DNA of 53,891 nt from Acidimicrobiia bacterium (GCA_009377505.1 WHTX01000002.1:1-53891); one strand, 5' to 3'. Numbered from the stretch's first letter, positions 8,239 to 42,635 are shown. Translations and numbers: made by a program. Notes: generated by a model from the sequence alone, not told the origin.

Positions 8239-8337
8239 GGCTTCCTCAGTACCCGACAGGCCCAGGCCCAGTCGTCGGGCTCAGCCAGTTCCGGCGCGGT
8301 TCGACAGTCCTCGGGGGCGGGGCTACCGTCGCTGGTG

Positions 8338-8436
8338 AACCCACGGGAGCCCGGCGCACCGGGCTGAGAGGGGGGCTGTCACCGGCCCCCGACCGTACGA
8401 ACCTGATGCGGGTCATACCGACGCAGGGAGACGGAC
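8338..8436 (+). promoter_or_regulatory. TPP (THI-box) riboswitch
   Basis: Conserved cores CTGAGA (8364-8369), ACCTGAT (8401-8407) and GGGTCATACCGACGCAGGGA. Overall layout matches actinobacterial thi riboswitches. Lies directly upstream of thiE. Confidence 0.85.
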
Positions 8437-8475
8437 GTCATCGATGTTCCCAGGCTCCACCTGATCACCCCACCG

Positions 8476-27905: not shown

Positions 27906-28113
27906 CTGCGGGGTGCGCCCCCGCGGACGTGGCCGCAGCGCAGGCCGGCTCGCCGCCCACCGAGCAGGCTGCACGCCTGGCACTGGGGCGCTTCCTAGCA
28001 CGCGCTCGCCGGTCCATGCTGGCTCCTGCGCCTCGACGGCTGCGCACCTCGTCGAACGCCGATCGACCGCCGGCCACGTCCTGACGTCATGGCACCACGA
28101 GCCGTGTCGGCCG

Positions 28114-28269
28114 CCGCTCGGGCGCCTCGCTCCACACGGTGCATCCCGCTCCCCGCCGCTCGGGCGCCTCGCTCCGCACGGTGCATCCCGCTCCCCGCCG
28201 CTCGGGCGCCTCGCTCCGCACGGTGCATCCCGCTCCCCGCCGCTCGGGCGCCTCGCTCCGCTCAGTGCA
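28114..28269. repeat. MIRU-like 42-bp tandem repeat, ~3.7 copies (family copy A)
   Basis: Unit ccgctcgggcgcctcgctccgcacggtgcatcccgctccccg starts at 28114, 28156, 28198 and 28240. The last partial unit contains the stop codon of the minus-strand gene 28262-28741. Confidence 0.95.
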
Positions 28270-33872: not shown

Positions 33873-34778
33873 TCAGTGGCCGGCCTCGATGAGCCCCCAC
33901 CGGCGGCGGATGGCGCGGTCGAGGGTGCCGAACACGAGGGCGTCGACGGCGATGCCGATGGCCAGGATGACGATCATGGTCGCGATCAGCCCCGAGGAGT
34001 CGGCGAGCTCACGGTTGATCTGGAGCAGGAACCCGATCGACGGCTCGTTGGGGATGACGACGATGAGCTCGCCCGCCATGAGGCTCCGCCAGGCGAACGC
34101 CCACCCCTGCTTGAGCCCGCCCACGAAGGAGGGCAGCGAGGCGGGCAGGATGATGTGGCGGTAGGCCTGGAGGCCCCGGGCGCCGAGCACCCGTCCGGCC
34201 CGCAGGAGGATGGGGGGGATGTGGTCGGCGCCGGCGATGAGCCCGTTGGCGATGGCCGGCGCGGCGCCGAGCACGACGACGAAGAGGATCGCCTGCTCGG
34301 AGAGCTTGAAGAGCAGGATTGCCAGGGGGAACCAGGCGATGGAGGGCATGGTCTGCACCCCGGTGATCAGGGAGCCCACGGCCGTGCGCACCGGCTTGAC
34401 CCGGGCCACGACGCTGCCCACGACCACGCCGATGACCGTCGCCAGGGTGAAGCCGATGGCGGCCCGGCGCAGCGTGATGGCCATCGCCTCGGCGATCGTG
34501 CCGTCCAACAGCAGGTCCCACAGGTCGCGCAGCGTCTCGCCCGGCGACGCGAGCGCATAGGTGGGCTTCCACCCCGACCACACCACGGCCTGCCACAGGA
34601 AGAGCCCGATGGCGACCGCCGCCACCTTGGGCCACGTCGAGCGCCACAGCCGCCGCCGACGGGTCTCGCCGGCCGCCTCGGCGAGCTCGAGCGCGTCGAG
34701 CCCGGCGAAGGTGTCGTCGAGGTTCTGCGCCCCGTCCTCGGTGGGCACGGCGCCGGCGCGGATGGAGTCAGTGGGCAT
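33873..34778 (-). CDS. ABC transporter permease (NitT/TauT family)
   Basis: Six-TM BPD-type permease with an EAA-like loop. Start overlaps the ATPase stop by 11 nt. Confidence 0.85.
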   Translation of the reverse strand: MPTDSIRAGAVPTEDGAQNLDDTFAGLDALELAEAAGETRRRRLWRSTWPKVAAVAIGLFLWQAVVWSGWKPTYALASPGETLRDLWDLLLDGTIAEAMAITLRRAAIGFTLATVIGVVVGSVVARVKPVRTAVGSLITGVQTMPSIAWFPLAILLFKLSEQAILFVVVLGAAPAIANGLIAGADHIPPILLRAGRVLGARGLQAYRHIILPASLPSFVGGLKQGWAFAWRSLMAGELIVVIPNEPSIGFLLQINRELADSSGLIATMIVILAIGIAVDALVFGTLDRAIRRRWGLIEAGH

Positions 34779-35652
34779 GGCGGAGCACCTCTCGGCGGAG
34801 CAGGTTCGTCACCGACCCGGCGAGCTCGCTGACCTCGGGGGACTCGATCCGCCGGGGCCGCTCGATGCTCACGTCGATGGTGGTCGCCACCCGCCCCGGG
34901 CGGCTCGACAGCACGACGATGCGGTCGGCCAGGCGGGCCGCCTCGCGCACGTTGTGGGTGACGAAGAGGATGGTCAGGTTACGGTCCGCCCACAGCGATT
35001 CGAGCTCGTCGTGGAGCAGGTCACGGGTCATGGCGTCGAGGGCCCCGAAGGGCTCGTCCATCAGCAGGATGTCGGCGTCCTGGGCGAACGCCCGGGCCAG
35101 CGCCACCCGTTGGCGCATGCCTCCCGAGAGCTCGTGGGGGCGACGGGCGGCGAAGCCGCTCAGGTGGACGGTGCGCAGCAGCGTCTCGACGCGGGCACGG
35201 CGGGCGTCCCTGGCCACGCCCCGGAGCTTGAGGGCGAGGTCCACGTTGCCAGCCACGGTGAGCCAGGGGAACAGCGCCGCGTCCTGGAACATGAGCCCCG
35301 TGCGGCCCTCGACGTGGAGCCGGCCCGCGCTCGGGGCGTCGAGCCCGGCGACGAGGTTCAACAGGGTGCTCTTGCCGCACCCCGAGGCGCCCACGACGCA
35401 GGTCAGCTCGCCCGGTTGGACCTCGAGGTCGATGCGGTCGAGGGCGGCGACGGGTTGGCGGCCCCCGCCGTACACCTTGCTCACCTGGTGCAGGGCGACC
35501 ACAGGGAGGGGGCCCGGCGGGCGGCCGGGCACGACGACAGCGCCTGTCGGGCCGTTCGCTTCGCTCGGTGCCCCCCACTCTCGGCCGCTCAGGCCGTTCG
35601 CTGCGCTCGGTGCCCCCCGCTCCCGGCCGCTCGGGCCGTTCGCTGCGCTCAC
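34768..35652 (-). CDS. ABC transporter ATP-binding protein (NitT/TauT family); N-terminal ~50 codons are repeat-encoded, alternative start GTG 35502
   Basis: Walker A GASGCGKST, signature LSGGMRQRVALARA, Walker B ILLMDEPFGALD. GTG 35652 forms a GTGA overlap with the SBP stop. Confidence 0.8.
   Translation of the reverse strand: MSAANGPSGRERGAPSAANGLSGREWGAPSEANGPTGAVVVPGRPPGPLPVVALHQVSKVYGGGRQPVAALDRIDLEVQPGELTCVVGASGCGKSTLLNLVAGLDAPSAGRLHVEGRTGLMFQDAALFPWLTVAGNVDLALKLRGVARDARRARVETLLRTVHLSGFAARRPHELSGGMRQRVALARAFAQDADILLMDEPFGALDAMTRDLLHDELESLWADRNLTILFVTHNVREAARLADRIVVLSSRPGRVATTIDVSIERPRRIESPEVSELAGSVTNLLRREVLRHAH
35550..35652. repeat. MIRU-like 42-bp tandem repeat, ~2.4 copies (family copy B)
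   Basis: Units start at 35550, 35592 and 35634. 34 of 42 positions are identical to the 28114-28269 unit, in the same orientation. Confidence 0.9.
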
Positions 35653-36749
35653 AGGCCGCCCACTCCGGTGTTGCCCCGCTCGGCGAGCAGCTCGTTCAGG
35701 ATCGTCAGGTCGTAGATGTCGGCGAGGTCGACCTCGTCGAGCAGCCCGGCGGCCACGGCGTCGTCCTTGGACTTCGCCAGCGACGAGGCGATGGGGTCGG
35801 CGGTGAAGGTCAACCGCTCCCAGGCACCGGCGATGGTCGACTCGGGGAGCGCCTTGGTCGTGATGCGCTCGATGCCGGCGTTGGTCGCCGCCCGGGCCCT
35901 GGCCGGGTCCTCGTTGGCGACGTCGATGGCCTCGAGGAGGCCGGTGATGAGCGCCCTCACGACCTGCGGGTTCGCCCCGAGGTAGTCGGTGTCGACGATC
36001 AGGTGGGTCGTGACGAACTGGCCATCGGGCCAGACGTCCCGCTCGTCGACCAGCACCTTGCCCCCGCCCTCCAGCTCGAGCCGTGTCGCCCAGGGCTCGG
36101 GCACCCAAGCGCCGTCGATCGCGCCCTCGCGGAAGGTGGTCAGCGTGTCGGCGTTGGCCTGGGGCCGGATGGACACGTCGCCCCCGCCGGTGACGTCGGC
36201 GGCGTAGCCGTGCTCGGTCAGCCAGGCGCGCAGGGCGACGTCCTGTGTGTTGCCGAGGGATGGCGTGGCCAGGGTCGTGCCCGCCAGGTCCTCGGGCGAG
36301 TCGATGCCCTCCCGCACGACGAGGGAGGCGCCGCCCGACGTGGTGCCGGCCACGATGCGCAGCGCCTCGCCACCGGACTGGGCGAAGCCGTTGATGGCCG
36401 GGTTCGGGCCGATGAAGCTCGCGTCGATGGCCCCCGAGAACAGCGCCTCGATCGCCTCGGTGCCGGAGTTGAAGTACACGTACTCCACCTGCACGCCCTC
36501 GCCGAGGCTGGCTGCGAACATGCCCTCCTCCTCGCCGATCACGGCAGGAGCGTGGGTGACGTTGGCGAAGTAGCCGAGGCGCAGAGCGCCGGACTCGGAC
36601 GCCCCGGGCCCCTCGGTCGCCCCGCTCGACGTGCTCGCCGCGTCGTCGTCCGAGGAGCTGTCCCCGCAGGCGGCGGCGGCGAGCCCGACGGCCACGAGGA
36701 CGGCGAGAAGAGGCAGGCGCCGACGTATGCCTACAAAGTCGATCAACAT
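35649..36749 (-). CDS. ABC transporter substrate-binding lipoprotein (NitT/TauT family)
   Basis: MLIDFVGIRRRLPLLAVLVAVGLAAAACG lipobox signal. Periplasmic-binding-protein-like body. Confidence 0.8.
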   Translation of the reverse strand: MLIDFVGIRRRLPLLAVLVAVGLAAAACGDSSSDDDAASTSSGATEGPGASESGALRLGYFANVTHAPAVIGEEEGMFAASLGEGVQVEYVYFNSGTEAIEALFSGAIDASFIGPNPAINGFAQSGGEALRIVAGTTSGGASLVVREGIDSPEDLAGTTLATPSLGNTQDVALRAWLTEHGYAADVTGGGDVSIRPQANADTLTTFREGAIDGAWVPEPWATRLELEGGGKVLVDERDVWPDGQFVTTHLIVDTDYLGANPQVVRALITGLLEAIDVANEDPARARAATNAGIERITTKALPESTIAGAWERLTFTADPIASSLAKSKDDAVAAGLLDEVDLADIYDLTILNELLAERGNTGVGGL

Positions 36750-37117
36750 AGTCAGGATTTCTACAGCCGCCGGACGGGCCTCGGCAAGCGAGTCCCGCCG
36801 GCGCCGTCGGTCGGCCGGGCGCCCCGCCGCCCCGGGCCCCGAACGGCTACGGGCGACGTCGGCGCCGCCGAACCAGGCACCGGCGCCGCTCCTCGGGCCG
36901 GTGGCCCGGCGGGACCAGGACATCACAAACGCCATGACCATCCAGGGGCTGTCGGCGTGGGGCGGTCGGGCAGTGGCCCCGTCATCGGCCCCATGCTCGA
37001 CCTCCCGGGTACTGGGCATCTGCATCCTCTGTGACCGCCCTCGTGGGGCGGATGGCGGTCAACACGCCATGCCTGGCCTCCGAGAAACGCCGTGTCAACC
37101 GTTCGTCGCGTTGATCC

Positions 37118-37146
37118 TGGACGGCACGGAGGTCGCTTGCTAGAGT
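37118..37146 (+). promoter_or_regulatory. Candidate promoter for the tRNA-like RNA (-35 TGGACG, 17-nt spacer, -10 TAGAGT)
   Basis: Hexamers read by eye. The -10 ends 13 nt before the first G of the tRNA-like acceptor stem. Confidence 0.3.
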
Positions 37147-37159
37147 TCGGCGTCACTTG

Positions 37160-37227
37160 GGGGGCGTAGCTCAGTTGGGAGAGCACGGCTTGCCGAGACA
37201 GGGGTTCAAATCCCCTCCCCTCCACCA
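37160..37227 (+). tRNA. Atypical tRNA-Ala-derived RNA lacking an anticodon arm (68 nt including CCA); functional tRNA-like carrier or pseudogene
   Basis: Acceptor GGGGGCG/CCCCTCC with G3:T70. D arm GCTC-AGTTGGGA-GAGC. T arm AGGGG-TTCAAAT-CCCCT. A73 and CCA present. Only 15 nt (ACGGCTTGCCGAGAC) lie between the D and T arms. Confidence 0.6.
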
Positions 37228-37339
37228 AGTCCCACGACTTCTAGCTAGCCGTGACCCCGGAAGTCCGTGGCATGATCAGGCCGGCCGAGTCGGTCGACGA
37301 CTCGATGTCGTCAAAGCCCGACCCCGGAGGATGCCCGAT

Positions 37340-38662
37340 ATGCCGTGGACGATCGAGCAGATCGAACGACGTTTCCTCGGTTTCATGGAGGCCAACGGCC
37401 ACGTGGTGATCGAGGGCCACTCCGTGCGCTCTCCGACGGACGACGTCCTGTTCACGACGGCTGGGATGCACCCGCTCACGCCCTACCTCGGCGGCGAGCC
37501 GCACCCCGCCGGCCAGCGCCTGACCGATGTCCAGCGCTGCGTGCGCACCACGGACATCGACGAGGTCGGCGACGACACGCACCTGACGGTGTTCGAGATG
37601 CTCGGGAACTGGAGCCTCGGGTCGTACTTCAAGGAGACGGCCATCCCGCTGTCCTTCAAGCTCCTCACCGAGGAGTTCGGCATCGACCCGCACAGCCTGT
37701 ATGTCACCGTTTTCGCCGGTGACCGCGAGGTTCCCGTCGACGACGAGGCCCCGGCGATCTGGTCACAGGTCTTCACCGGAGCCGGGGTCGACCCGACCGG
37801 GCGGATCAACCCGCTGGGCGAGGAGGACAACTGGTGGTCGAACGGGCCCGTGGGCTTGTGCGGTCCCGACACGGAGATCTTCGTCTACGTCGGCGAAGAA
37901 GGCGTGCCCGTCTTCGGCGACAAACCGGAGTTCGTGGAGATCTGGAACAACGTCTTCATGACCTACGACCGCTCGAAAGACGGCGAACTGACCTCGCTGT
38001 CGCAACGAAACGTCGATACCGGCATGGGCCTCGAGCGCATCGCCATGTTCCTCAACCAGCACACGTCGGTGTGGCAGACCGACGAGCTGGCCGAGCTCGC
38101 CGAGGCCGTCGCCGCCACCCTCGGGACAAGCACCGCCGACCTCGACACCGACGGCACCCGCTCCCTGCGCATCGTCACCGACCACCTGCGAGCCGGCCTG
38201 GCCATCGCCGCCGCCGGCATCCAGCCTTCGGCCAGCCGCCAGGGCTACGTGCTGCGCAAGCTCGTCCGCCGCTCCCTGCGCCACGCCGAGCTGCTCAAGG
38301 GCACTGACGAGGGCCTCCTCGCCGCTTACGCGGCCGCGGCCGAGGCCGTGTCGCAGGTCGTCGGGCGGCGCTGGCCCGATGTCGGGGGCTCCCCCGACGG
38401 CGATGCCGCCCGGGCCGTGCTGAACAAGGAGGCCGGCCGCTTCGCCAAGACGCTGAAGTCCGGCGTCGAGCACCTCCACGACCTGGCCGAGCACGGTACG
38501 ACCTTCGACGGCGACCTGGCCTTCAACTTCGCCGACACGCTCGGCTACCCGGCCGAACTGGCCGCCGAGGAGGCGTCCAGGGTGGGCATGGCCGTCGACC
38601 CGGGCTGGGAGGCCCGCTTCGAGGAGCTCCGCGAGGAGCAACGGGCCCGCTCCCGCGGCTGA
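37340..38662 (+). CDS. Free-standing alanyl-tRNA-synthetase aminoacylation + tRNA-recognition domain paralogue (no editing domain, no C-Ala)
   Basis: GGAGG is 9 nt before ATG 37340. AlaRS motifs: FTTAGM, QRCVRTTDIDEVG, FEMLGNWSLGSYFK, GPDTEIF, EIWNNVFM, VDTGMGLERI, RIVTDHLRA, GYVLRKLVRR. 440 aa. Confidence 0.85.
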   Translation: MPWTIEQIERRFLGFMEANGHVVIEGHSVRSPTDDVLFTTAGMHPLTPYLGGEPHPAGQRLTDVQRCVRTTDIDEVGDDTHLTVFEMLGNWSLGSYFKETAIPLSFKLLTEEFGIDPHSLYVTVFAGDREVPVDDEAPAIWSQVFTGAGVDPTGRINPLGEEDNWWSNGPVGLCGPDTEIFVYVGEEGVPVFGDKPEFVEIWNNVFMTYDRSKDGELTSLSQRNVDTGMGLERIAMFLNQHTSVWQTDELAELAEAVAATLGTSTADLDTDGTRSLRIVTDHLRAGLAIAAAGIQPSASRQGYVLRKLVRRSLRHAELLKGTDEGLLAAYAAAAEAVSQVVGRRWPDVGGSPDGDAARAVLNKEAGRFAKTLKSGVEHLHDLAEHGTTFDGDLAFNFADTLGYPAELAAEEASRVGMAVDPGWEARFEELREEQRARSRG

Positions 38663-38689
38663 GCCCGGGACCGCCGGCGCGACGACTGG

Positions 38690-39478
38690 TCATCCCGCCC
38701 CCGGGCCCCAGCCGAAGGGGCCGCCGCTGCCACCGCCCCCCCAACCGAGCACCACGCCGGCGAGGGCGCCGACGGCAGCGACGACGACGAGGCCGATGGT
38801 CTCCGAGGGGCGCCTCGGCGTCCGGTCTGCCGGGTGGGGCGCGCCCGAGGCGAGCACGGCGCCCAGCCCGATGCCGATGGCCCACCCGGCCGGGTGGGTG
38901 AGGTCGTACACGAGGCCCGAGAACAGCAGCGGCCCGGGGAAGTAGCAGCTCAGCCCCACTCGCAGCCGGCGCCGCCACGCAACCGGCAGGTGGGCCGTCC
39001 ATGCCCCGAGCGTGGCGAACCCGCCCACCGACATGCCGAAGTCGATCGTGCCGGCCAGGTCTCGCGCCCAGGCCCAGTCGCCGTGGCGCAGGGGGTAGAG
39101 CAGGCCGCAGACGACGAGCACGCCGGCCAGCTGGCCCCCGACCAGCACCACGGCGGCGCGCCAGTGCCGGGCCACGTGCTCGTACAGCGCGATCCCGAGC
39201 AACGTGAACAGGGGCAAGGGCAGCGTCAGCGCCTCTACCAGGAACATGCCGCTGAGCAGGGCCCAGGGGCGCCCGTCGAGCAGCGGGGGCAGCCCGAAGC
39301 CGAGCCGGTCGACCTCGGTCGTCGTCACGTCGGGCCCGAGGGCGCGCGTCGCCCACGCCGTGGCCACCGCCGACGTGGCCACGGTCAAGAGCACGACGCG
39401 GTAGTCGAGCGGTGCCCGCAGGAGCGACCGCGCCAACCGCCGCCCGTCGTAGCGCGGCCGCGGCCGTGTCAGGGTCAT
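38690..39478 (-). CDS. Polytopic membrane protein, stand-alone paralogue of the N-terminal module of 39500-41944 (rhomboid-like, tentative)
   Basis: Collinear similarity to the fusion protein: GRPWALLSGMFL/GRWWTFFTGAFF; YEHVARHWRAAVVLVGGQ/YERRVGHWRALGVVVGGQ; DFGMSVGGFATLG/DLGISAGGFAVFG; DLTHPAGW/DVEHLVSW. Confidence 0.7.
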   Translation of the reverse strand: MTLTRPRPRYDGRRLARSLLRAPLDYRVVLLTVATSAVATAWATRALGPDVTTTEVDRLGFGLPPLLDGRPWALLSGMFLVEALTLPLPLFTLLGIALYEHVARHWRAAVVLVGGQLAGVLVVCGLLYPLRHGDWAWARDLAGTIDFGMSVGGFATLGAWTAHLPVAWRRRLRVGLSCYFPGPLLFSGLVYDLTHPAGWAIGIGLGAVLASGAPHPADRTPRRPSETIGLVVVAAVGALAGVVLGWGGGGSGGPFGWGPGAG

Positions 39479-39499
39479 CGATGCGGCTCGAGTGCCGGC

Positions 39500-41944
39500 T
39501 CAGCCGCGACCGGGCTTCGCCATGTCCCACGTCATCATCGCCCAGTCCTTGAGCCCGGCATCGGGCATGTAGGCACGAGCGATGGCGACGCCGATCTCGA
39601 GGAGCGTCGACTCGTCGGGGAAGACGAGGTACATGGGGCGGAACACGGGCTGGAACTTGGTCTTGAAGGCGTGCAGGGACCGGAAGCCGTAGTAGGGCTC
39701 GAGCGAGTCGCCGAGGAAGTCGAGCAGCTTCTGGAGCACCCGCTGGTCGCTGCTGCCGGCGAGGTGGTCGGGGGCCCTGGCGAGCGGGGCGGCGGAAAGG
39801 CTGATGAAGCGGAAGCCCTCGTCCTTGAACTCGAGCGCCGAGGCGCCGATCAGGTACTCCATCACCGGCCTGAAGCCCTCGTCCCGGCGCCGCATGAGGT
39901 CGAGCGTCCAGCCGATCACCTCGCCGTCCTCGCCGACAGGCATCCAGGACGTGAAGCCCTCGACCGTGGAGTCCTCGTCCATCGCCACGTGGAGCCGCAC
40001 CTCGGGGTCGTCGGCCTCGCGGAGGGTGCCCAAGGTGAAGCCCATCTCCGGCAGCGACTTGTCCGAGACCCAGCCGTTGCTGATGACGTGGAGCTGGTCG
40101 GTGAGCACGGGCTTGGCCTCGGCCCACCGTGTCTTCTCGAGGCGGATGTTCAGCTTGCCGGCCTTGTTCATGGCCGTGCGGACGTCCTGCCACGCCTTGC
40201 CCTTGAACTCGAGGCCCTCGAGGCCGACGACGCCGTCCTCGGCCACCTCCACGGCCTTCCAGCGCAGCTCGGGGGCGAGCGCCGCCGTCTCCTCGCTGGC
40301 GGCGAACATGCAGGGGAGCCAGCCTCGCTCGAAGCAGAAGGCGTCGAACTCCTGCATGGCCGCCAGCCTCTTGCCCGCCGGCCCCACGGGGTCGGCCAGG
40401 CACAGGGCCACCGAGCCCACCACCCTGAAGCCGATGGCGGTCTCGCCGTCGGCGGAGAACCACACCGTGTTGCCCCGCCACGTCAGCATCCACTCGATGG
40501 ACGAGGAGTGGTTGGCCAGCAGCAGCGCCCGCAGGCGGGCGTCCTGCTCGGGCTCGGGCCGGGGACGGCGCGAGGCGTAGACCAACCCGATCACCGTGAC
40601 GATGATGGCGCCGATCCACACGAGGGCGATCGAGCGGACGAACAGCTCGGCCGCGTCCGTCGCCGGCTCGATGTTGCCGCTCGTTGAGAAGAAGAGGCGG
40701 CTGACGAACTCAGCCACCATGTCCGCCGGCCGGGCCCGGGGGACGAAGTCGTCCTGGAGCACGGCGAAGCCGATTGCGGTGTAGGCGAAGAGCCCGAGGG
40801 CGACCTTGAGGAGCCGCCCACCGGCGCGGCGGAACGAGTGCTGCGGGGACCGCGCCGTGAAGGCCCGGTAGGTGACGAGCAGGAGCAGCAGCAGCCCGCC
40901 CGTGATGACCAGGTCCGCCGTGCGCTCCGAGCTGGCGTCCACGGCGAGGAGGCTCAGGAAGCTGAGGGCCATGAGCCCCGTCGTCAGGCCCCAGGCGAAG
41001 CGGCGCCCGCGCCGCAACCCGTCGGCCAGGGCCAGCCAGACGATCGAGGACACCACCAGGGCCAGCGTGACCCCTGACGGGTGGTAGGCGTCATCGCCGG
41101 CGTGGAAGGGGCCCCCGTTGCCCTGCCAGATGGCCGCCAGCAATGCCGACAACGCCGAGACGGCGACGACGAGCGCCACCACCGAGCGCTGCAGGCGGCG
41201 GCCGAACCGCACCGCCGGCTGCACGGGCCGCCTCCCGGCCAGGAGGGGGCCGGCAGCCATGCCCAGCGTCCAGGAGACGAGGTGCTCCACGTCCCACAGG
41301 AGGCCAGCGTTGAGGAGCATGGCGATCAGGTAGGCCGTGACCGCGGCGCGTACCCGCACCCGCCACGTGGGCTGCATGACCGCCGTCAGGGCGCCGAAGA
41401 CGGCGAAGCCCCCAGCCGAGATCCCGAGGTCGAGCTCCCTGCCGAGCTCGACGGCCCAGGTCCAGCCGGTGTCGCGGAACAGGTAGAGGAACCCAGCGGT
41501 GAGCATCGAGCCGAACGCCTGGCCGCCGACGACGACCCCCAGGGCCCGCCAGTGCCCGACGCGGCGCTCGTAGGTGCTCGCCGCCGCCACCAGCAGGACG
41601 AGGATGGGGATGTAGAGGACGATCTGGGGCACGAAGAAGGCCCCGGTGAAGAACGTCCACCAGCGGCCTTCCCGGAGGGCGGGCAGGCCGTAGGCCACGG
41701 CGTCATAGAGGCTGTCGCCCTCGCTGATCCCCCGCCAGGCCGCGCCGGTGACGAGCCCGGCGCCGACACAGAGGACGACGAGGGCGGCGGTGGCCGGGTA
41801 CCGGCGGACGACGCCTGACACCCAGGCGGCGGCACGCCCCGCCCGTCCAGTTGCCGCTCCCGGCGCCGGGGCCTCGGGCCCGTCGGCTGGAGGGCCACCG
41901 TGTTCGTCGAGGGTACTCGTCGGGCTCGCCACGTCGCAGATCAT
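39500..41944 (-). CDS. Membrane fusion protein: rhomboid-like module + TM region + C-terminal aminoacyl-phosphatidylglycerol synthase (DUF2156, MprF/LysX-type) domain
   Basis: The C-terminal ~350 aa has aaPGS hallmarks: VWFSADG, GWTLDLMRRR, PVMEYLI, FISLSAAPLA, YYGFRSLHAFKTKFQPVFRPMYLVF. Start at ATG 41944 is tentative. Confidence 0.8.
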   Translation of the reverse strand: MICDVASPTSTLDEHGGPPADGPEAPAPGAATGRAGRAAAWVSGVVRRYPATAALVVLCVGAGLVTGAAWRGISEGDSLYDAVAYGLPALREGRWWTFFTGAFFVPQIVLYIPILVLLVAAASTYERRVGHWRALGVVVGGQAFGSMLTAGFLYLFRDTGWTWAVELGRELDLGISAGGFAVFGALTAVMQPTWRVRVRAAVTAYLIAMLLNAGLLWDVEHLVSWTLGMAAGPLLAGRRPVQPAVRFGRRLQRSVVALVVAVSALSALLAAIWQGNGGPFHAGDDAYHPSGVTLALVVSSIVWLALADGLRRGRRFAWGLTTGLMALSFLSLLAVDASSERTADLVITGGLLLLLLVTYRAFTARSPQHSFRRAGGRLLKVALGLFAYTAIGFAVLQDDFVPRARPADMVAEFVSRLFFSTSGNIEPATDAAELFVRSIALVWIGAIIVTVIGLVYASRRPRPEPEQDARLRALLLANHSSSIEWMLTWRGNTVWFSADGETAIGFRVVGSVALCLADPVGPAGKRLAAMQEFDAFCFERGWLPCMFAASEETAALAPELRWKAVEVAEDGVVGLEGLEFKGKAWQDVRTAMNKAGKLNIRLEKTRWAEAKPVLTDQLHVISNGWVSDKSLPEMGFTLGTLREADDPEVRLHVAMDEDSTVEGFTSWMPVGEDGEVIGWTLDLMRRRDEGFRPVMEYLIGASALEFKDEGFRFISLSAAPLARAPDHLAGSSDQRVLQKLLDFLGDSLEPYYGFRSLHAFKTKFQPVFRPMYLVFPDESTLLEIGVAIARAYMPDAGLKDWAMMTWDMAKPGRG

Positions 41945-42059
41945 CGCATGGCCGTCGGTCGCCCTGCTCGGACCAGTGGCGCGATGACCGCATTGAGCGG
42001 TCGACGCCCCAGACCACGGGCAGCAGCGCCCTCGCCACCAGGGTGCGCAGGTGCTGTGG

Positions 42060-42635
42060 TCAGGACAGGGCGAGCGTGGTGACGCCTCGGCGCACGTCGA
42101 AGGCCCGGAAGATGTTGGCCACCCCTTCGAACAGCGCCCCGAAGCCCACCCAGATGACGAGCAGGGTGATCGACCGCCCTTCATAGCCAGCAGCCCAGAA
42201 GCCCACGCCGATCTCGGCGAGCCCGGCGACGAGGCCGAGCCACCAGAGCTCGGTGAGCCCCCGGCTCATGATGGCGACCATGACGGTGAAGACGCCCTTG
42301 AAGAGCAGGTACCAGCCGATGATGGCTGCGAGCACGAGGAAGGTGGCCTCGGGCCATGCCACGGCGACGATGCCGGTGAGGATGAAGAGCACGCCGACCG
42401 CGGCGCGCAACCACTTCCAACCCTCGATGACCGAGAGGGTGGCGAGGTAGACGAGGCCGTTGGCGATCATCGAGAAGCCGGCGAACAAGGCGATCGACCA
42501 GACCGTCCTCCACTCGAAGGAGAGCACGACCCAGCCGAACACCAGCCACAGGCCGCCGATGACGAGCAACACCCACCATTGTCCCTGGTCGCGCTCATCG
42601 GCAGCGACAGACGTCTGGCGTTCGGTGACGGCCAT
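42060..42635 (-). CDS. HdeD-family (DUF308) acid-resistance membrane protein
   Basis: Six-TM protein with a repeated WW/GW pattern (QWWVLLVIGGLWLVFGWVVL...), typical of HdeD. Confidence 0.75.
   Translation of the reverse strand: MAVTERQTSVAADERDQGQWWVLLVIGGLWLVFGWVVLSFEWRTVWSIALFAGFSMIANGLVYLATLSVIEGWKWLRAAVGVLFILTGIVAVAWPEATFLVLAAIIGWYLLFKGVFTVMVAIMSRGLTELWWLGLVAGLAEIGVGFWAAGYEGRSITLLVIWVGFGALFEGVANIFRAFDVRRGVTTLALS

What the first reader, a model, noticed from the sequence alone, without database searches (positions are those of the whole stretch)
37118..42635. Candidate dedicated aminoacyl-carrier system: anticodon-less tRNA-Ala-like RNA + truncated AlaRS + aaPGS (MprF/LysX-type) fusion operon
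Seen in sequence: within 5.5 kb lie five linked elements.
- (i) A tRNA-like RNA with the alanine acceptor identity set but no anticodon arm (37160-37227).
- (ii) About 110 nt downstream on the same strand, a 440-aa AlaRS catalytic/tRNA-recognition fragment with no editing or C-Ala domains.
- (iii) Converging on it with a 27-bp gap, a minus-strand operon encoding an 814-aa membrane protein whose C-terminal domain carries the hallmarks of tRNA-dependent aminoacyl-phosphatidylglycerol synthases (DLMRRR, SLSAAPLA, YYGFRSLHAFKTKF).
- (iv) A stand-alone paralogue of that protein's N-terminal membrane module.
- (v) An HdeD-type acid-resistance membrane protein, with an MFS transporter upstream.

Established knowledge:
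- aaPGS/MprF enzymes take the aminoacyl group from aa-tRNA.
- In mycobacteria the LysX protein physically fuses a LysRS to the MprF-like transferase, which is precedent for a private aaRS feeding lipid aminoacylation.
- AlaRS recognises the acceptor stem (G3:U70), not the anticodon, and an N-terminal ~460-aa fragment charges minihelices.

Inference:
- This locus may be a split, alanine-type analogue of LysX with its own carrier RNA.
- Such a carrier cannot decode on the ribosome, so envelope aminoacylation would be insulated from translation.
- That would explain why the synthetase can dispense with editing.
- I know of no described system that combines these three parts.
Basis: partly seen in the sequence, partly recalled or inferred. 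Interest (0 to 1): 0.92.

Follow-up and report, generated by a model that had tools for sequence, protein, structure and literature searches.

The report
Anticodon-less alanine carrier RNA for lipids
A small tRNA-shaped RNA that has lost its anticodon is encoded, in a group of soil and water actinobacteria, together with a shortened alanine-charging enzyme and a membrane-lipid aminoacylating enzyme. It looks like a private alanine delivery line for the cell envelope that cannot feed into protein synthesis.

Summary

- **RNA.** Window 37160-37227 (+) is a 68-nt tRNA-shaped RNA. It carries the full bacterial alanine identity set (A73, G2:C71, G3.U70, G4:C69, G20) and an encoded CCA. Its anticodon arm is replaced by a 3-bp stem with a CUUG tetraloop.
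- **Mini-AlaRS.** A 440-aa AlaRS fragment (catalytic plus tRNA-recognition domains) starts 112 nt downstream. Its active site is intact.
- **aaPGS.** A minus-strand operon with an aaPGS-type lipid aminoacyl transferase converges on it.

Comparison of 28 related loci (Ilumatobacteraceae/Acidimicrobiia):
- The mini-AlaRS lies within 10 kb of an aaPGS-family gene in 21 of 23 assessable loci.
- The RNA lies beside it in 18 of 27.
- The RNA shows compensatory changes, variable stem length, interchangeable stable tetraloops and its own promoter.
- In some loci the RNA is divergent from the AlaRS gene, heads the aaPGS operon, or sits beside a second aaPGS type with no AlaRS gene.
- Most loci also encode aspartate 4-decarboxylase, which makes L-alanine.

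Best reading: a self-contained pathway, Asp to Ala to Ala-RNA to Ala-lipid, using a carrier RNA that cannot decode.

The HdeD and MFS neighbours are not conserved. Expression, charging, the lipid product and a separate housekeeping alaS were not shown. I found no published description.

The parts
37141..37146 (+). -10-like hexamer TAGAGT, ending 13 nt before the first base of the RNA. There is no good TTG -35 in the window (CTGGAC at 37117-37122, 18-nt spacer).
   Evidence: the motif TTGnnn-N16-19-TAnnnT ends 12-19 nt before G1 in 15 of 20 RNA loci, against 0 of 4000 random positions in the same loci. The window has only the -10 part. Flanks are shown.
37160..37227 (+). 68-nt tRNA-Ala-like RNA without an anticodon. 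It has a 7-position acceptor stem (G3.U70, C6.C67 mismatch), a normal D arm and T arm, A73 and an encoded CCA. The anticodon arm is reduced to CGG-CUUG-CCG.
   Evidence: Rfam tRNA 49 bits. (ARAGORN finds none). (homologues in 20 further loci); 95% of cells paired, 7 pairs with changes on both sides, 0 of 500 shuffles as high, slid controls 0-1, G3.U70 in 14 of 14 distinct sequences.
37228..37339 (+). 112-nt spacer with a Shine-Dalgarno sequence (GGAGGA, 37326-37331). No terminator lies between the RNA and the AlaRS gene.
   Evidence: no terminator-like site on the + strand. (AGGAGG before the ATG in the related loci).
37340..38662 (+). Mini-AlaRS, 440 aa: aminoacylation domain plus tRNA-recognition domain only.
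   Evidence: Pfam; aligns end to end with the engineered N-terminal AlaRS fragments 9jc7, 1riq and 3hxu, E 1e-64 to 1e-71; below both alaS equivalog cut-offs; catalytic and Ala-pocket residues kept and D400 kept in 78 of 78 family members, but N303 is Ala in 72 of 78 and Y399 is Ala in 78 of 78.
38690..39478 (-). 262-aa membrane protein, a stand-alone paralogue of the aaPGS N-terminal (rhomboid-like) module, with no Pfam family. It is the last gene of the minus-strand operon.
   Evidence: 38% identity, E 5e-35; a separate copy is also present in L001, L007 and L014, and not in most loci.
39500..41944 (-). aaPGS-family transferase, 814 aa: rhomboid-like membrane module, then a LysX-type transmembrane region, then the cytosolic LPG_synthase_C (DUF2156) domain.
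   Evidence: about 88 orthologue clusters at 52-81% identity, Acidimicrobiia; synteny with the mini-AlaRS.

Best explanation
The locus encodes a private alanine supply line for membrane-lipid aminoacylation.

Proposed steps:
1. A promoter just upstream of 37160 drives a transcript that starts with the tRNA-like RNA and runs on into the mini-AlaRS gene.
2. The tRNA maturation enzymes (RNase P at the 5' end, a 3' nuclease at or after the encoded CCA) release a 68-nt RNA with an intact acceptor stem, elbow and CCA but no anticodon.
3. The mini-AlaRS activates L-alanine and charges this RNA through its G3.U70 acceptor stem.
4. The cytosolic DUF2156 domain of the aaPGS-type enzyme, which needs only the aminoacyl acceptor helix, transfers the alanine to a membrane lipid (PG, DAG or a related lipid).
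5. In most related genomes aspartate 4-decarboxylase makes the alanine on the spot, and an esterase and a second aaPGS paralogue complete the module.

Because the carrier cannot read a codon, alanine charged on it cannot enter proteins, and neither can serine or glycine mischarged by an editing-less enzyme.

Shown here: the sequence anatomy, structural conservation of the RNA, intact active-site residues, and gene linkage. Inferred: transcription and processing, charging by this enzyme, transfer to lipid, and the identity of the lipid.
For: RNA is a real structured gene:
- 14 distinct sequences show 7 base pairs with compensatory changes. None of 500 shuffles reaches this, and register-shifted controls give 0-1.
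- Conservation stops exactly at the CCA.
- The substitute for the anticodon arm varies from no stem (L096) through 3 bp to 6 bp. Where a stem is present it is capped by CUUG, UUCG, UUUG or CGUG.
- ARAGORN reads the long-stem forms as 'tRNA-???' with a 2-nt anticodon.
- A promoter motif precedes it in 15 of 20 loci. In L096 it has its own promoter and a strong terminator.

RNA is not just an AlaRS leader:
- In L089/L099 and L096 it is divergent from the AlaRS gene. In L089/L099 it heads the aaPGS-esterase-aaPGS2 operon.
- In L087 it sits 160 nt from a Metallophos-LPG_synthase_C gene, with aspartate 4-decarboxylase and an esterase nearby and no AlaRS gene.

Reciprocal test: a metagenome scan with the RNA pattern gave 8 contigs, 7 of them carrying the family RNA. 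The other, L093, carries a different tRNA-like RNA. Every family contig long enough to judge carried the mini-AlaRS or an aaPGS-family gene next to the RNA.

Linkage: an aaPGS-family gene lies within 10 kb in 21 of 23 assessable mini-AlaRS loci.

Alanine:
- The bacterial identity set A73, G2:C71, G3.U70, G4:C69, G20 (PMC9976931) is present.
- AlaRS pocket residues are conserved in at least 76 of 78 members.
- The neighbouring PLP enzyme is aspartate 4-decarboxylase (NF006755, 771 bits against a cut-off of 321), which makes L-alanine.

Feasibility, from the literature:
- A tRNA-Ala minihelix is as good a substrate as the full tRNA for Ala-PG synthase (PMC6103681).
- N-terminal AlaRS fragments and a natural mini-AlaRS charge acceptor helices (PMC10036535).
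- LysX shows that an aaPGS can depend on its own synthetase (PMC6103681).
Against: - Nine of 27 assessable mini-AlaRS loci have no RNA within 10 kb even with a broadened model. So the synthetase probably also works with the ordinary tRNA-Ala, or the RNA lies elsewhere in those genomes.
- Orthologous aaPGS genes exist without either partner nearby (L095 Rhabdothermincola salaria, L097).
- Nothing in the sequence makes the pair visibly orthogonal. The RNA carries the standard alanine identity set, so the housekeeping AlaRS should charge it too.
- The family's Ala at position 303 corresponds to E. coli N303A, which is fully active but no longer rejects G3:C70 tRNAs (PMC6055181). That argues for relaxed rather than exclusive recognition.
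- The minimum-free-energy fold of the window RNA alone is no better than shuffles (z 0.58).
- There are no expression, charging or lipid data.
- A separate full-length alaS in these genomes was not verified.
- The window itself lacks the aspartate 4-decarboxylase.
Confidence: 0.6

Rival explanations
1. Private synthetase, ordinary tRNA. The mini-AlaRS boosts charging of the normal tRNA-Ala for the aaPGS enzymes. The tRNA-like RNA is an accessory element: a processing or stabilising signal for the operon mRNA, a decoy or buffer for the synthetase, or a sensor of alanine charging. It is not the aminoacyl donor.
For: - Nine mini-AlaRS loci lack the RNA yet mostly keep the aaPGS and often the aspartate 4-decarboxylase.
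- Ala at position 303 predicts broad acceptance of acceptor stems.
- In 16 loci the RNA is simply the 5' part of the AlaRS transcript.
Against: - The CCA end, A73, G3.U70 and the whole elbow are conserved, as expected for a chargeable molecule.
- The RNA occurs as a free-standing gene with its own promoter and terminator (L096).
- The RNA occurs next to an aaPGS gene with no AlaRS gene (L087).
- An editing-less AlaRS that loads the translational tRNA-Ala pool would promote Ser/Gly mistranslation.
Confidence: 0.15
2. The RNA and mini-AlaRS form a true carrier pair, but the acceptor is not a membrane lipid made by the neighbouring aaPGS. It could be, for example, a cell-wall precursor, a protein or a small molecule.
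For: Some mini-AlaRS loci (L002, L013) have no aaPGS within 10 kb. Other mini-AlaRS lineages sit in unrelated contexts (L100, L101).
Against: - Twenty-one of 23 assessable loci have an aaPGS-family gene, of two different architectures.
- No Fem-type, L/F-transferase, cyclodipeptide-synthase or natural-product genes were seen in the neighbourhoods.
- In L087 the RNA is adjacent to an aaPGS-type gene.
Confidence: 0.08
3. Cis-regulatory tRNA mimic. The structure in the 5' leader binds the mini-AlaRS and represses its own translation, like the ThrRS operator. It is never charged.
For: It lies 50-112 nt upstream of the AlaRS start in most loci. In L008 its 3' end overlaps the start codon.
Against: - It is on the opposite strand from the AlaRS gene in L089/L099 and L096, and has no AlaRS gene nearby in L087.
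- A promoter sits immediately 5' of G1, as for a tRNA gene.
- Conservation ends exactly at the CCA.
Confidence: 0.07
4. [quoted passage not shown]
For: The active site is intact. A viral mini-AlaRS can replace yeast AlaRS (PMC10036535). A full-length alaS could not be looked for genome-wide here.
Against: - The family was found in only 19 species genomes of one actinobacterial group. Relatives that carry the orthologous aaPGS show no mini-AlaRS within 10 kb of it.
- Its nearest relatives are short CPR-type AlaRS, not actinobacterial alaS.
- Asn303, which is kept in more than 95% of AlaRS to reject G3:C70 tRNAs, is lost.
- The RNA shows compensatory evolution, not decay.
Confidence: 0.04
5. The protein is an AcmF-like aminoacyl transferase that uses Ala-tRNA as donor rather than a synthetase.
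For: AcmF of ascamycin biosynthesis has the same truncated architecture (PMC12945691).
Against: AcmF lacks most ATP and alanine activation residues and carries the substitutions N219Q and D232E. This family keeps all the equivalent residues. No nucleoside-antibiotic genes are nearby.
Confidence: 0.03

Closest known systems
LysX of mycobacteria and corynebacteria (aaPGS fused to a LysRS)
   Same: An aaPGS-family lipid aminoacyl transferase with its own dedicated synthetase. LysX needs its LysRS domain (PMC6103681). LysRS-fused members also exist in the Metallophos-aaPGS family that neighbours this system.
   Different: Here the synthetase is a separate gene, is specific for alanine, and is truncated. 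It is accompanied by its own carrier RNA. LysX uses the ordinary tRNA-Lys.
Non-proteinogenic tRNA-Gly isoacceptors of Staphylococcus (peptidoglycan bridge synthesis)
   Same: tRNA species reserved for an envelope-building transferase and kept away from translation (PMC9976931).
   Different: Those tRNAs keep a normal anticodon arm, escape through weakened EF-Tu binding, and are charged by the housekeeping GlyRS. This RNA has no anticodon and is encoded with a private synthetase.
Tupanvirus mini-AlaRS and engineered AlaRS N-terminal fragments
   Same: [quoted passage not shown]
   Different: The viral enzyme serves translation and has no partner RNA or transferase. This is a bacterial family of about 87 sequence clusters with a fixed genomic partnership.
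tRNA-like domain of tmRNA
   Same: An alanine-accepting RNA with G3.U70 and no anticodon arm. The Rfam tmRNA model matches the ends of this RNA.
   Different: There is no mRNA-like part and no pseudoknots. It has a normal D arm and is 68 nt rather than about 360 nt. Nothing links it to SmpB or ribosome rescue.
Synthetic tRNA-Ala minihelices and microhelices
   Same: They show that the acceptor/T helix suffices for AlaRS and for Ala-PG synthase (PMC6103681).
   Different: Those are laboratory constructs. This would be a natural, genomically encoded counterpart that keeps the D arm and elbow.
AlaDAGS-PesT operon of Corynebacterium
   Same: An actinobacterial aaPGS homologue using Ala-tRNA, encoded with an esterase (PMC6103681). 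Esterase genes (PF00756) occur in L004, L087 and L089/L099.
   Different: No private synthetase, carrier RNA or alanine-forming enzyme has been described there.

Membership tests
Canonical elongator tRNA-Ala | Acceptor stem with G3.U70, A73 and CCA; D arm and T arm with elbow nucleotides | tested here: met
   G3.U70 in 14 of 14 sequences. T loop UUCRAAU. D loop with GG in most.
Canonical elongator tRNA-Ala | Anticodon arm of 5 bp with a 7-nt loop carrying a 3-nt anticodon | tested here: not met
   The arm is a 3-6-bp stem with a 4-nt loop, or no arm at all in L096. ARAGORN finds nothing, or 'tRNA-???' with a 2-nt anticodon.
tmRNA | Tag-peptide reading frame and pseudoknots between the two halves of the tRNA-like domain | tested here: not met
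   The Rfam tmRNA hit is below gathering (34 against 47 bits), with 326 model positions replaced by 28 nt.
Housekeeping alanine--tRNA ligase (alaS) | Class II catalytic core with an alanine pocket, plus a tRNA-recognition domain | tested here: met
Housekeeping alanine--tRNA ligase (alaS) | Editing domain and C-Ala domain; score above the NCBIfam equivalog cut-off | tested here: not met
   The protein ends at profile position 429 of 552. NF002436 scores 374 against a cut-off of 529, and TIGR00344 scores 330 against 457.
Housekeeping alanine--tRNA ligase (alaS) | Asn303/Asp400 pair that reads G3.U70 and rejects G3:C70 | tested here: not met
   Asp400 is kept in 78 of 78, but Asn303 is Ala in 72 of 78. 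The role of Asn303 is from PMC6055181. The L096 lineage keeps Asn.
aaPGS / MprF | C-terminal LPG_synthase_C (DUF2156) transferase domain | tested here: met
   E 5e-68 over the full profile. PDB 4v34 and 9goe at E 1e-21.
aaPGS / MprF | N-terminal MprF flippase domain (LPG_synthase_TM, PF03706) | tested here: not met
   Instead it shows weak Rhomboid_2 and LysX-type TM matches. It is below the bifunctional MprF equivalog cut-off (200 against 600 bits).
aaPGS / MprF | aa-tRNA-dependent aminoacylation of PG or DAG | not testable with these tools
   Needs enzymology or lipidomics.
LysX-type aaRS-aaPGS system | Synthetase physically fused to the transferase | tested here: not met
   They are separate, convergent genes in the window. 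They are never fused in the 28 loci.
LysX-type aaRS-aaPGS system | Dedicated synthetase genetically coupled to the transferase | tested here: met
   21 of 23 assessable loci.
AcmF-type AlaRS-like transferase | Loss of ATP and alanine activation residues | tested here: not met
   The residues are conserved, in contrast to the AcmF description in PMC12945691.
Cis-acting tRNA-mimic leader | Always in the 5' UTR of the regulated synthetase gene | tested here: not met
   Divergent orientation in L089/L099 and L096. No AlaRS gene in L087.

The most novel reading that the evidence does not exclude
This is the first natural aminoacyl-carrier RNA built for a non-ribosomal job. It is a tRNA descendant that has shed its anticodon, and in one lineage the whole anticodon arm. 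It is charged by a co-encoded minimal AlaRS and serves only as alanine donor for lipid aminoacyl transferases, with aspartate 4-decarboxylase supplying the alanine. That would answer, for this clade, the open question of how aminoacyl-tRNA is diverted from EF-Tu and the ribosome to MprF-type enzymes. It would also provide a natural minimal synthetase/acceptor-helix pair.
Probability: 0.5. Interest if true: 0.9.

Novelty: new variant of a known kind. Interest (0 to 1): 0.8.

Why it matters
**An open question becomes testable.** How MprF-type enzymes obtain aminoacyl-tRNA in competition with EF-Tu and the ribosome is stated to be an open question (PMC9976931). A clade that encodes a carrier unable to decode, with its own synthetase and its own alanine source, would show one evolutionary solution. 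It could be tested with a handful of genes.

**A natural minimal pair.** It would be a natural example of the 'operational RNA code', in which an acceptor helix and a minimal synthetase work without an anticodon. It is also a ready-made candidate for an alanine-charging pair that stays outside translation, of interest for synthetic biology.

**Missed by annotation.** The RNA is missed or flagged as undetermined by tRNA finders. The synthetase is annotated only as 'alanine--tRNA ligase-related protein'. The system is therefore invisible in current annotation.

Tried and rejected
1. **Looking for a full-length alaS.** tblastn with the E. coli AlaRS editing/C-Ala half found nothing in the loci held. 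Names of clusters of full-length AlaRS representatives gave no usable organism link.
2. **Weak covariance-model hits.** L022:18089-18144 and L057:13166-13221 are noise. L006:13296-13352 is a copy of a tRNA-Pro 3' half.
3. **A diverged RNA in the RNA-less loci.** A relaxed regular expression and a broadened model R2 found only ordinary tRNAs.
4. **RNA on phages.** No match in viral contigs.
5. **Link between Ala303 and the RNA.** There is none: Ala303 occurs with and without the RNA.
6. **Other mini-AlaRS lineages and the same context.** L100 and L101 do not share it.
7. **Single-sequence folding of the window RNA.** Uninformative (z 0.58). The evidence for structure comes from covariation.
8. 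**Consensus sigma-70 scan of the window.** It found nothing. The promoter evidence comes from the family-wide motif.
9. **L093.** It carries a different short-armed tRNA-like RNA with no aaPGS or AlaRS gene in 4.5 kb. I left it out of the family.

Full report
**What is in the window**

The stretch 37160-37227 (+) reads GGGGGCG-UA-GCUC-AGUUGGGA-GAGC-A-CGG-CUUG-CCG-AGAC-AGGGG-UUCAAAU-CCCCU-CCCCUCC-A-CCA.
- It has a tRNA acceptor stem with G3.U70 and one C6.C67 mismatch.
- It has a normal D arm with G18, G19 and G20, a normal T arm, discriminator A73 and an encoded CCA.
- Where the 17-nt anticodon arm should be, there are 10 nt: three base pairs closed by a CUUG tetraloop.
- ARAGORN reports no tRNA in the whole window.
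- Rfam's tRNA model scores it at 49 bits against a gathering score of 29. The tmRNA model matches its two ends with the middle deleted.
- The bacterial alanine identity set given in PMC9976931 (A73, G2:C71, G3.U70, G4:C69, G20) is complete.

- A 440-aa ORF (37340-38662) starts 112 nt downstream, behind a GGAGGA Shine-Dalgarno. It covers positions 2-429 of the 552-position AlaRS Pfam model and nothing else.
- A minus-strand operon converges on it. It encodes a DUF308 protein (42060-42635), an 814-aa aaPGS-type protein (39500-41944; LPG_synthase_C E 5e-68) and a 262-aa membrane protein (38690-39478).
- The 262-aa protein is a paralogue of the aaPGS N-terminal module (38% identity, E 5e-35).

**The synthetase fragment**
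- It aligns end to end with the engineered N-terminal AlaRS fragments that were crystallised (9jc7, 1riq, 3hxu; E 1e-64 to 1e-71).
- It falls below both NCBIfam alaS equivalog cut-offs.
- It belongs to a tight family of about 87 sequence clusters, 63-85% identical and all about 440 aa. These are annotated, where at all, as 'alanine--tRNA ligase-related protein' from Ilumatobacteraceae/Acidimicrobiales.
- The next best relatives are 600-aa AlaRS of Saccharibacteria and other CPR bacteria, at 47% identity or less.
- I aligned 78 members with E. coli AlaRS. The arginine of motif 2, the Trp/Asn/Val/Asp/Gly residues of the alanine pocket, and Asp400 are all kept. Asp400 is the positive reader of the G3 amino group.
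- Asn303 is Ala in 72 of 78, and Tyr399 is Ala in 78 of 78.
- Chong et al. (PMC6055181) showed that E. coli N303A is fully active on tRNA-Ala (1.9-fold kcat/Km) but no longer rejects G3:C70 tRNAs. They also showed that the Asn is kept in more than 95% of about 2,500 AlaRS.
- The protein therefore looks like an active alanine-charging enzyme. With no editing domain, no C-Ala domain and no Asn303, it would be poorly suited as a housekeeping AlaRS.
- It differs from AcmF, a truncated AlaRS-like transferase that has lost the activation residues (PMC12945691).

**The RNA is a conserved, structured, independent gene**

A covariance model built from seven copies finds the RNA in 20 further loci at 46-103 bits.
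- On 14 distinct sequences, 95% of pair cells are standard pairs and seven pairs show changes on both sides. None of 500 column shuffles reaches these values, and register-shifted controls give 0-1.
- G3.U70 is invariant. The C6.C67 mismatch is present in 11 of 14 and repaired to C:G in two.
- Conservation ends exactly at the CCA.
- The arm that replaces the anticodon arm has no conserved length. It has 3 bp in most loci, 4 bp in L087 and L089, and 6 bp in L004 and L008.
- In L096 the arm is absent altogether. That RNA is a 54-nt three-way junction of acceptor stem, D-like hairpin and T arm.
- Its loop is CUUG, UUCG, UUUG or CGUG, all short tetraloop caps (UUCG and CUUG are textbook stable tetraloops, from general knowledge). 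That points to selection for a stub rather than a decoding loop.
- ARAGORN labels the long-stem versions 'tRNA-???' with a two-base anticodon.
- A TTGnnn-N16-19-TAnnnT promoter motif ends 12-19 nt before G1 in 15 of 20 loci, against 0 of 4000 random positions. The window has only the -10-like TAGAGT.

In most loci the RNA lies 50-112 nt upstream of the mini-AlaRS on the same strand, with no terminator between them. The two would then be co-transcribed and separated by tRNA processing (an inference).

The RNA is not merely a leader, for three reasons.
- In L089/L099 it is on the opposite strand from the AlaRS gene and heads the aaPGS-esterase-aaPGS2 operon.
- In L096 it is divergent from the AlaRS gene, with its own promoter and a strong terminator hairpin (z -4.98).
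- In L087 there is no AlaRS gene in 8.7 kb. The RNA sits 160 nt from a Metallophos-LPG_synthase_C gene, flanked by an esterase and a PLP enzyme.

**Linkage**

I compared 28 independent mini-AlaRS loci: the window, 19 species genomes from GTDB, and metagenome and MAG contigs.
- An aaPGS-family gene lies within 10 kb in 21.
- It is absent in two loci with full flanks (L002, L013).
- It cannot be judged in five short contigs.
- The RNA is adjacent in 18, absent within 10 kb in nine, and cut off by a contig end in one (Ilumatobacter nonamiensis).

The reciprocal scan of metagenome contigs with an RNA pattern returned eight contigs.
- Seven carry the family RNA.
- All five of those that are long enough carry the mini-AlaRS, an aaPGS-family gene, or both, next to the RNA.
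- The eighth (L093) is a different tRNA-like RNA from a low-GC organism, and I set it aside.

The orthologous aaPGS also occurs without either partner nearby (Rhabdothermincola salaria L095, and L097). The DUF308 and MFS genes of the window recur in no other locus. The 262-aa paralogue recurs as a separate gene in only a few loci.

**An unexpected fourth partner**

The gene annotated only as 'aminotransferase class I/II' lies beside the aaPGS, the AlaRS gene or the RNA in L001, L006, L007, L017-L022, L087, L089/L099, L090 and L096.
- It is an aspartate 4-decarboxylase (NF006755, 771 bits against a cut-off of 321; TIGR03801, 764 against 435).
- This enzyme converts L-aspartate to L-alanine.
- That is independent evidence that alanine is the amino acid moved by the system.
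- It suggests a self-contained route: Asp to Ala to Ala-RNA to Ala-lipid.
- The window itself lacks this gene.
- Some loci add a PF00756 esterase and a second aaPGS paralogue with an N-terminal metallophosphoesterase domain.
- In the wider family of that paralogue, several members carry a fused LysRS, which is the LysX arrangement. Private synthetases for aaPGS enzymes thus seem to be a recurring theme in Acidimicrobiia.

L096 carries a second, more canonical mini-AlaRS lineage: 39% identical, 459 aa, with Asn303 and Tyr399 retained. It sits with the most reduced RNA, the same aaPGS and the decarboxylase.

**Mechanism and its weak points**

Established knowledge makes each step feasible.
- AlaRS reads the acceptor stem, not the anticodon.
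- N-terminal fragments and a natural viral mini-AlaRS charge micro- and minihelices (PMC10036535).
- Ala-PG synthase uses an alanyl minihelix as well as the full tRNA (PMC6103681).
- LysX depends on its own LysRS domain (same review).

The retained D arm and elbow would keep the RNA a substrate for RNase P, the 3' processing enzymes and the CCA-adding enzyme (an inference).

A carrier without an anticodon cannot deliver its amino acid to a codon. Mischarging by an editing-less, Asn303-less enzyme would then be harmless. This is a rationale, not a result.

Against a strictly private pair:
- The RNA has the ordinary alanine identity set, so the housekeeping enzyme should charge it as well.
- One third of the mini-AlaRS loci have no nearby RNA.
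- I could not verify a full-length alaS in these genomes.

There are no data on expression, charging or lipids.

**Comparison with what is known**

I found no paper describing a truncated AlaRS, an anticodon-less tRNA and an aaPGS together. The closest known systems are:
- LysX: a dedicated synthetase, but fused, and using the normal tRNA.
- The staphylococcal non-proteinogenic tRNA-Gly species: dedicated tRNAs, but with an anticodon and the housekeeping synthetase.
- The Tupanvirus mini-AlaRS: the same architecture, but serving translation.
- The tmRNA tRNA-like domain.

The system is a new variant of tRNA-dependent lipid aminoacylation. If the RNA is indeed the donor, it would be the first natural aminoacyl-carrier RNA that is structurally excluded from decoding. 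It bears directly on the open question of how MprF-type enzymes obtain their substrate in competition with EF-Tu (PMC9976931).

Noticed in passing
L001, L006, L007, L017-L022, L087, L089/L099, L090, L096 (for example L099:2540-4186 +); absent from the window: The 'aminotransferase' gene next to the aaPGS, mini-AlaRS or RNA is an aspartate 4-decarboxylase (L-Asp to L-Ala). It forms part of the conserved neighbourhood, although the window lacks it.
   Followed up: yes
L087:3846-6764 (+), L099:10001-12949 (+), L098:10001-12883 (+): A second aaPGS paralogue with an N-terminal metallophosphoesterase domain (about 970 aa) travels with the system. Its wider family is common in Acidimicrobiales and includes members of about 1520 aa with a fused LysRS (LysX-like).
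   Followed up: partly
L096:15354-15408 (+): A minimal 54-nt version of the RNA with no anticodon arm at all and ACAA instead of ACCA at the 3' end. It has its own promoter and a strong terminator. It sits next to a distinct mini-AlaRS lineage (459 aa) that keeps Asn303.
   Followed up: partly
L008:9929-10002 (+): The CCA end of the RNA overlaps the mini-AlaRS start codon (ACCATG), with no Shine-Dalgarno. 3' processing of the RNA would leave a leaderless mRNA.
   Followed up: no
L100:2351-3649 and L101:10001-11425: Other full-coverage AlaRS fragments of 430-475 aa exist outside this family (at least 16 representatives). One follows an Rce1-like/CPBP membrane protease gene in a cultured actinobacterial genome (GCA_014640255.1). 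Neither has an aaPGS gene or the RNA nearby.
   Followed up: partly
L093:759-831 (-): A low-GC metagenome contig carries a different 73-nt tRNA-like RNA with G3.U70 and a short irregular anticodon arm. It lies 15 nt downstream of a tRNA-Cys, with no AlaRS or aaPGS gene in 4.5 kb.
   Followed up: partly
L006:2175-2252 (+) and L006:13296-13352 (-): A copy of the 3' half of tRNA-Pro(CGG) lies in inverted orientation 11 kb from the intact gene. The pair brackets the decarboxylase, aaPGS and mini-AlaRS genes. This may be a trace of integration or rearrangement.
   Followed up: no
L019, L021, L022 (mini-AlaRS) and L014, L019 (aaPGS): These genes come as two or more tblastn segments, suggesting frameshifts. 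All are long-read MAGs, so these may be assembly errors rather than pseudogenes.
   Followed up: no
window 8335-8446 (+): TPP riboswitch (Rfam RF00059, 59 bits, above the gathering score).
   Followed up: no
window 28111-28269 and 35550-35650: Tandem repeats with a 42-nt period (3.8 and 2.4 copies). The second lies in the N-terminal region of the ABC ATPase ORF 34768-36108 (-).
   Followed up: no
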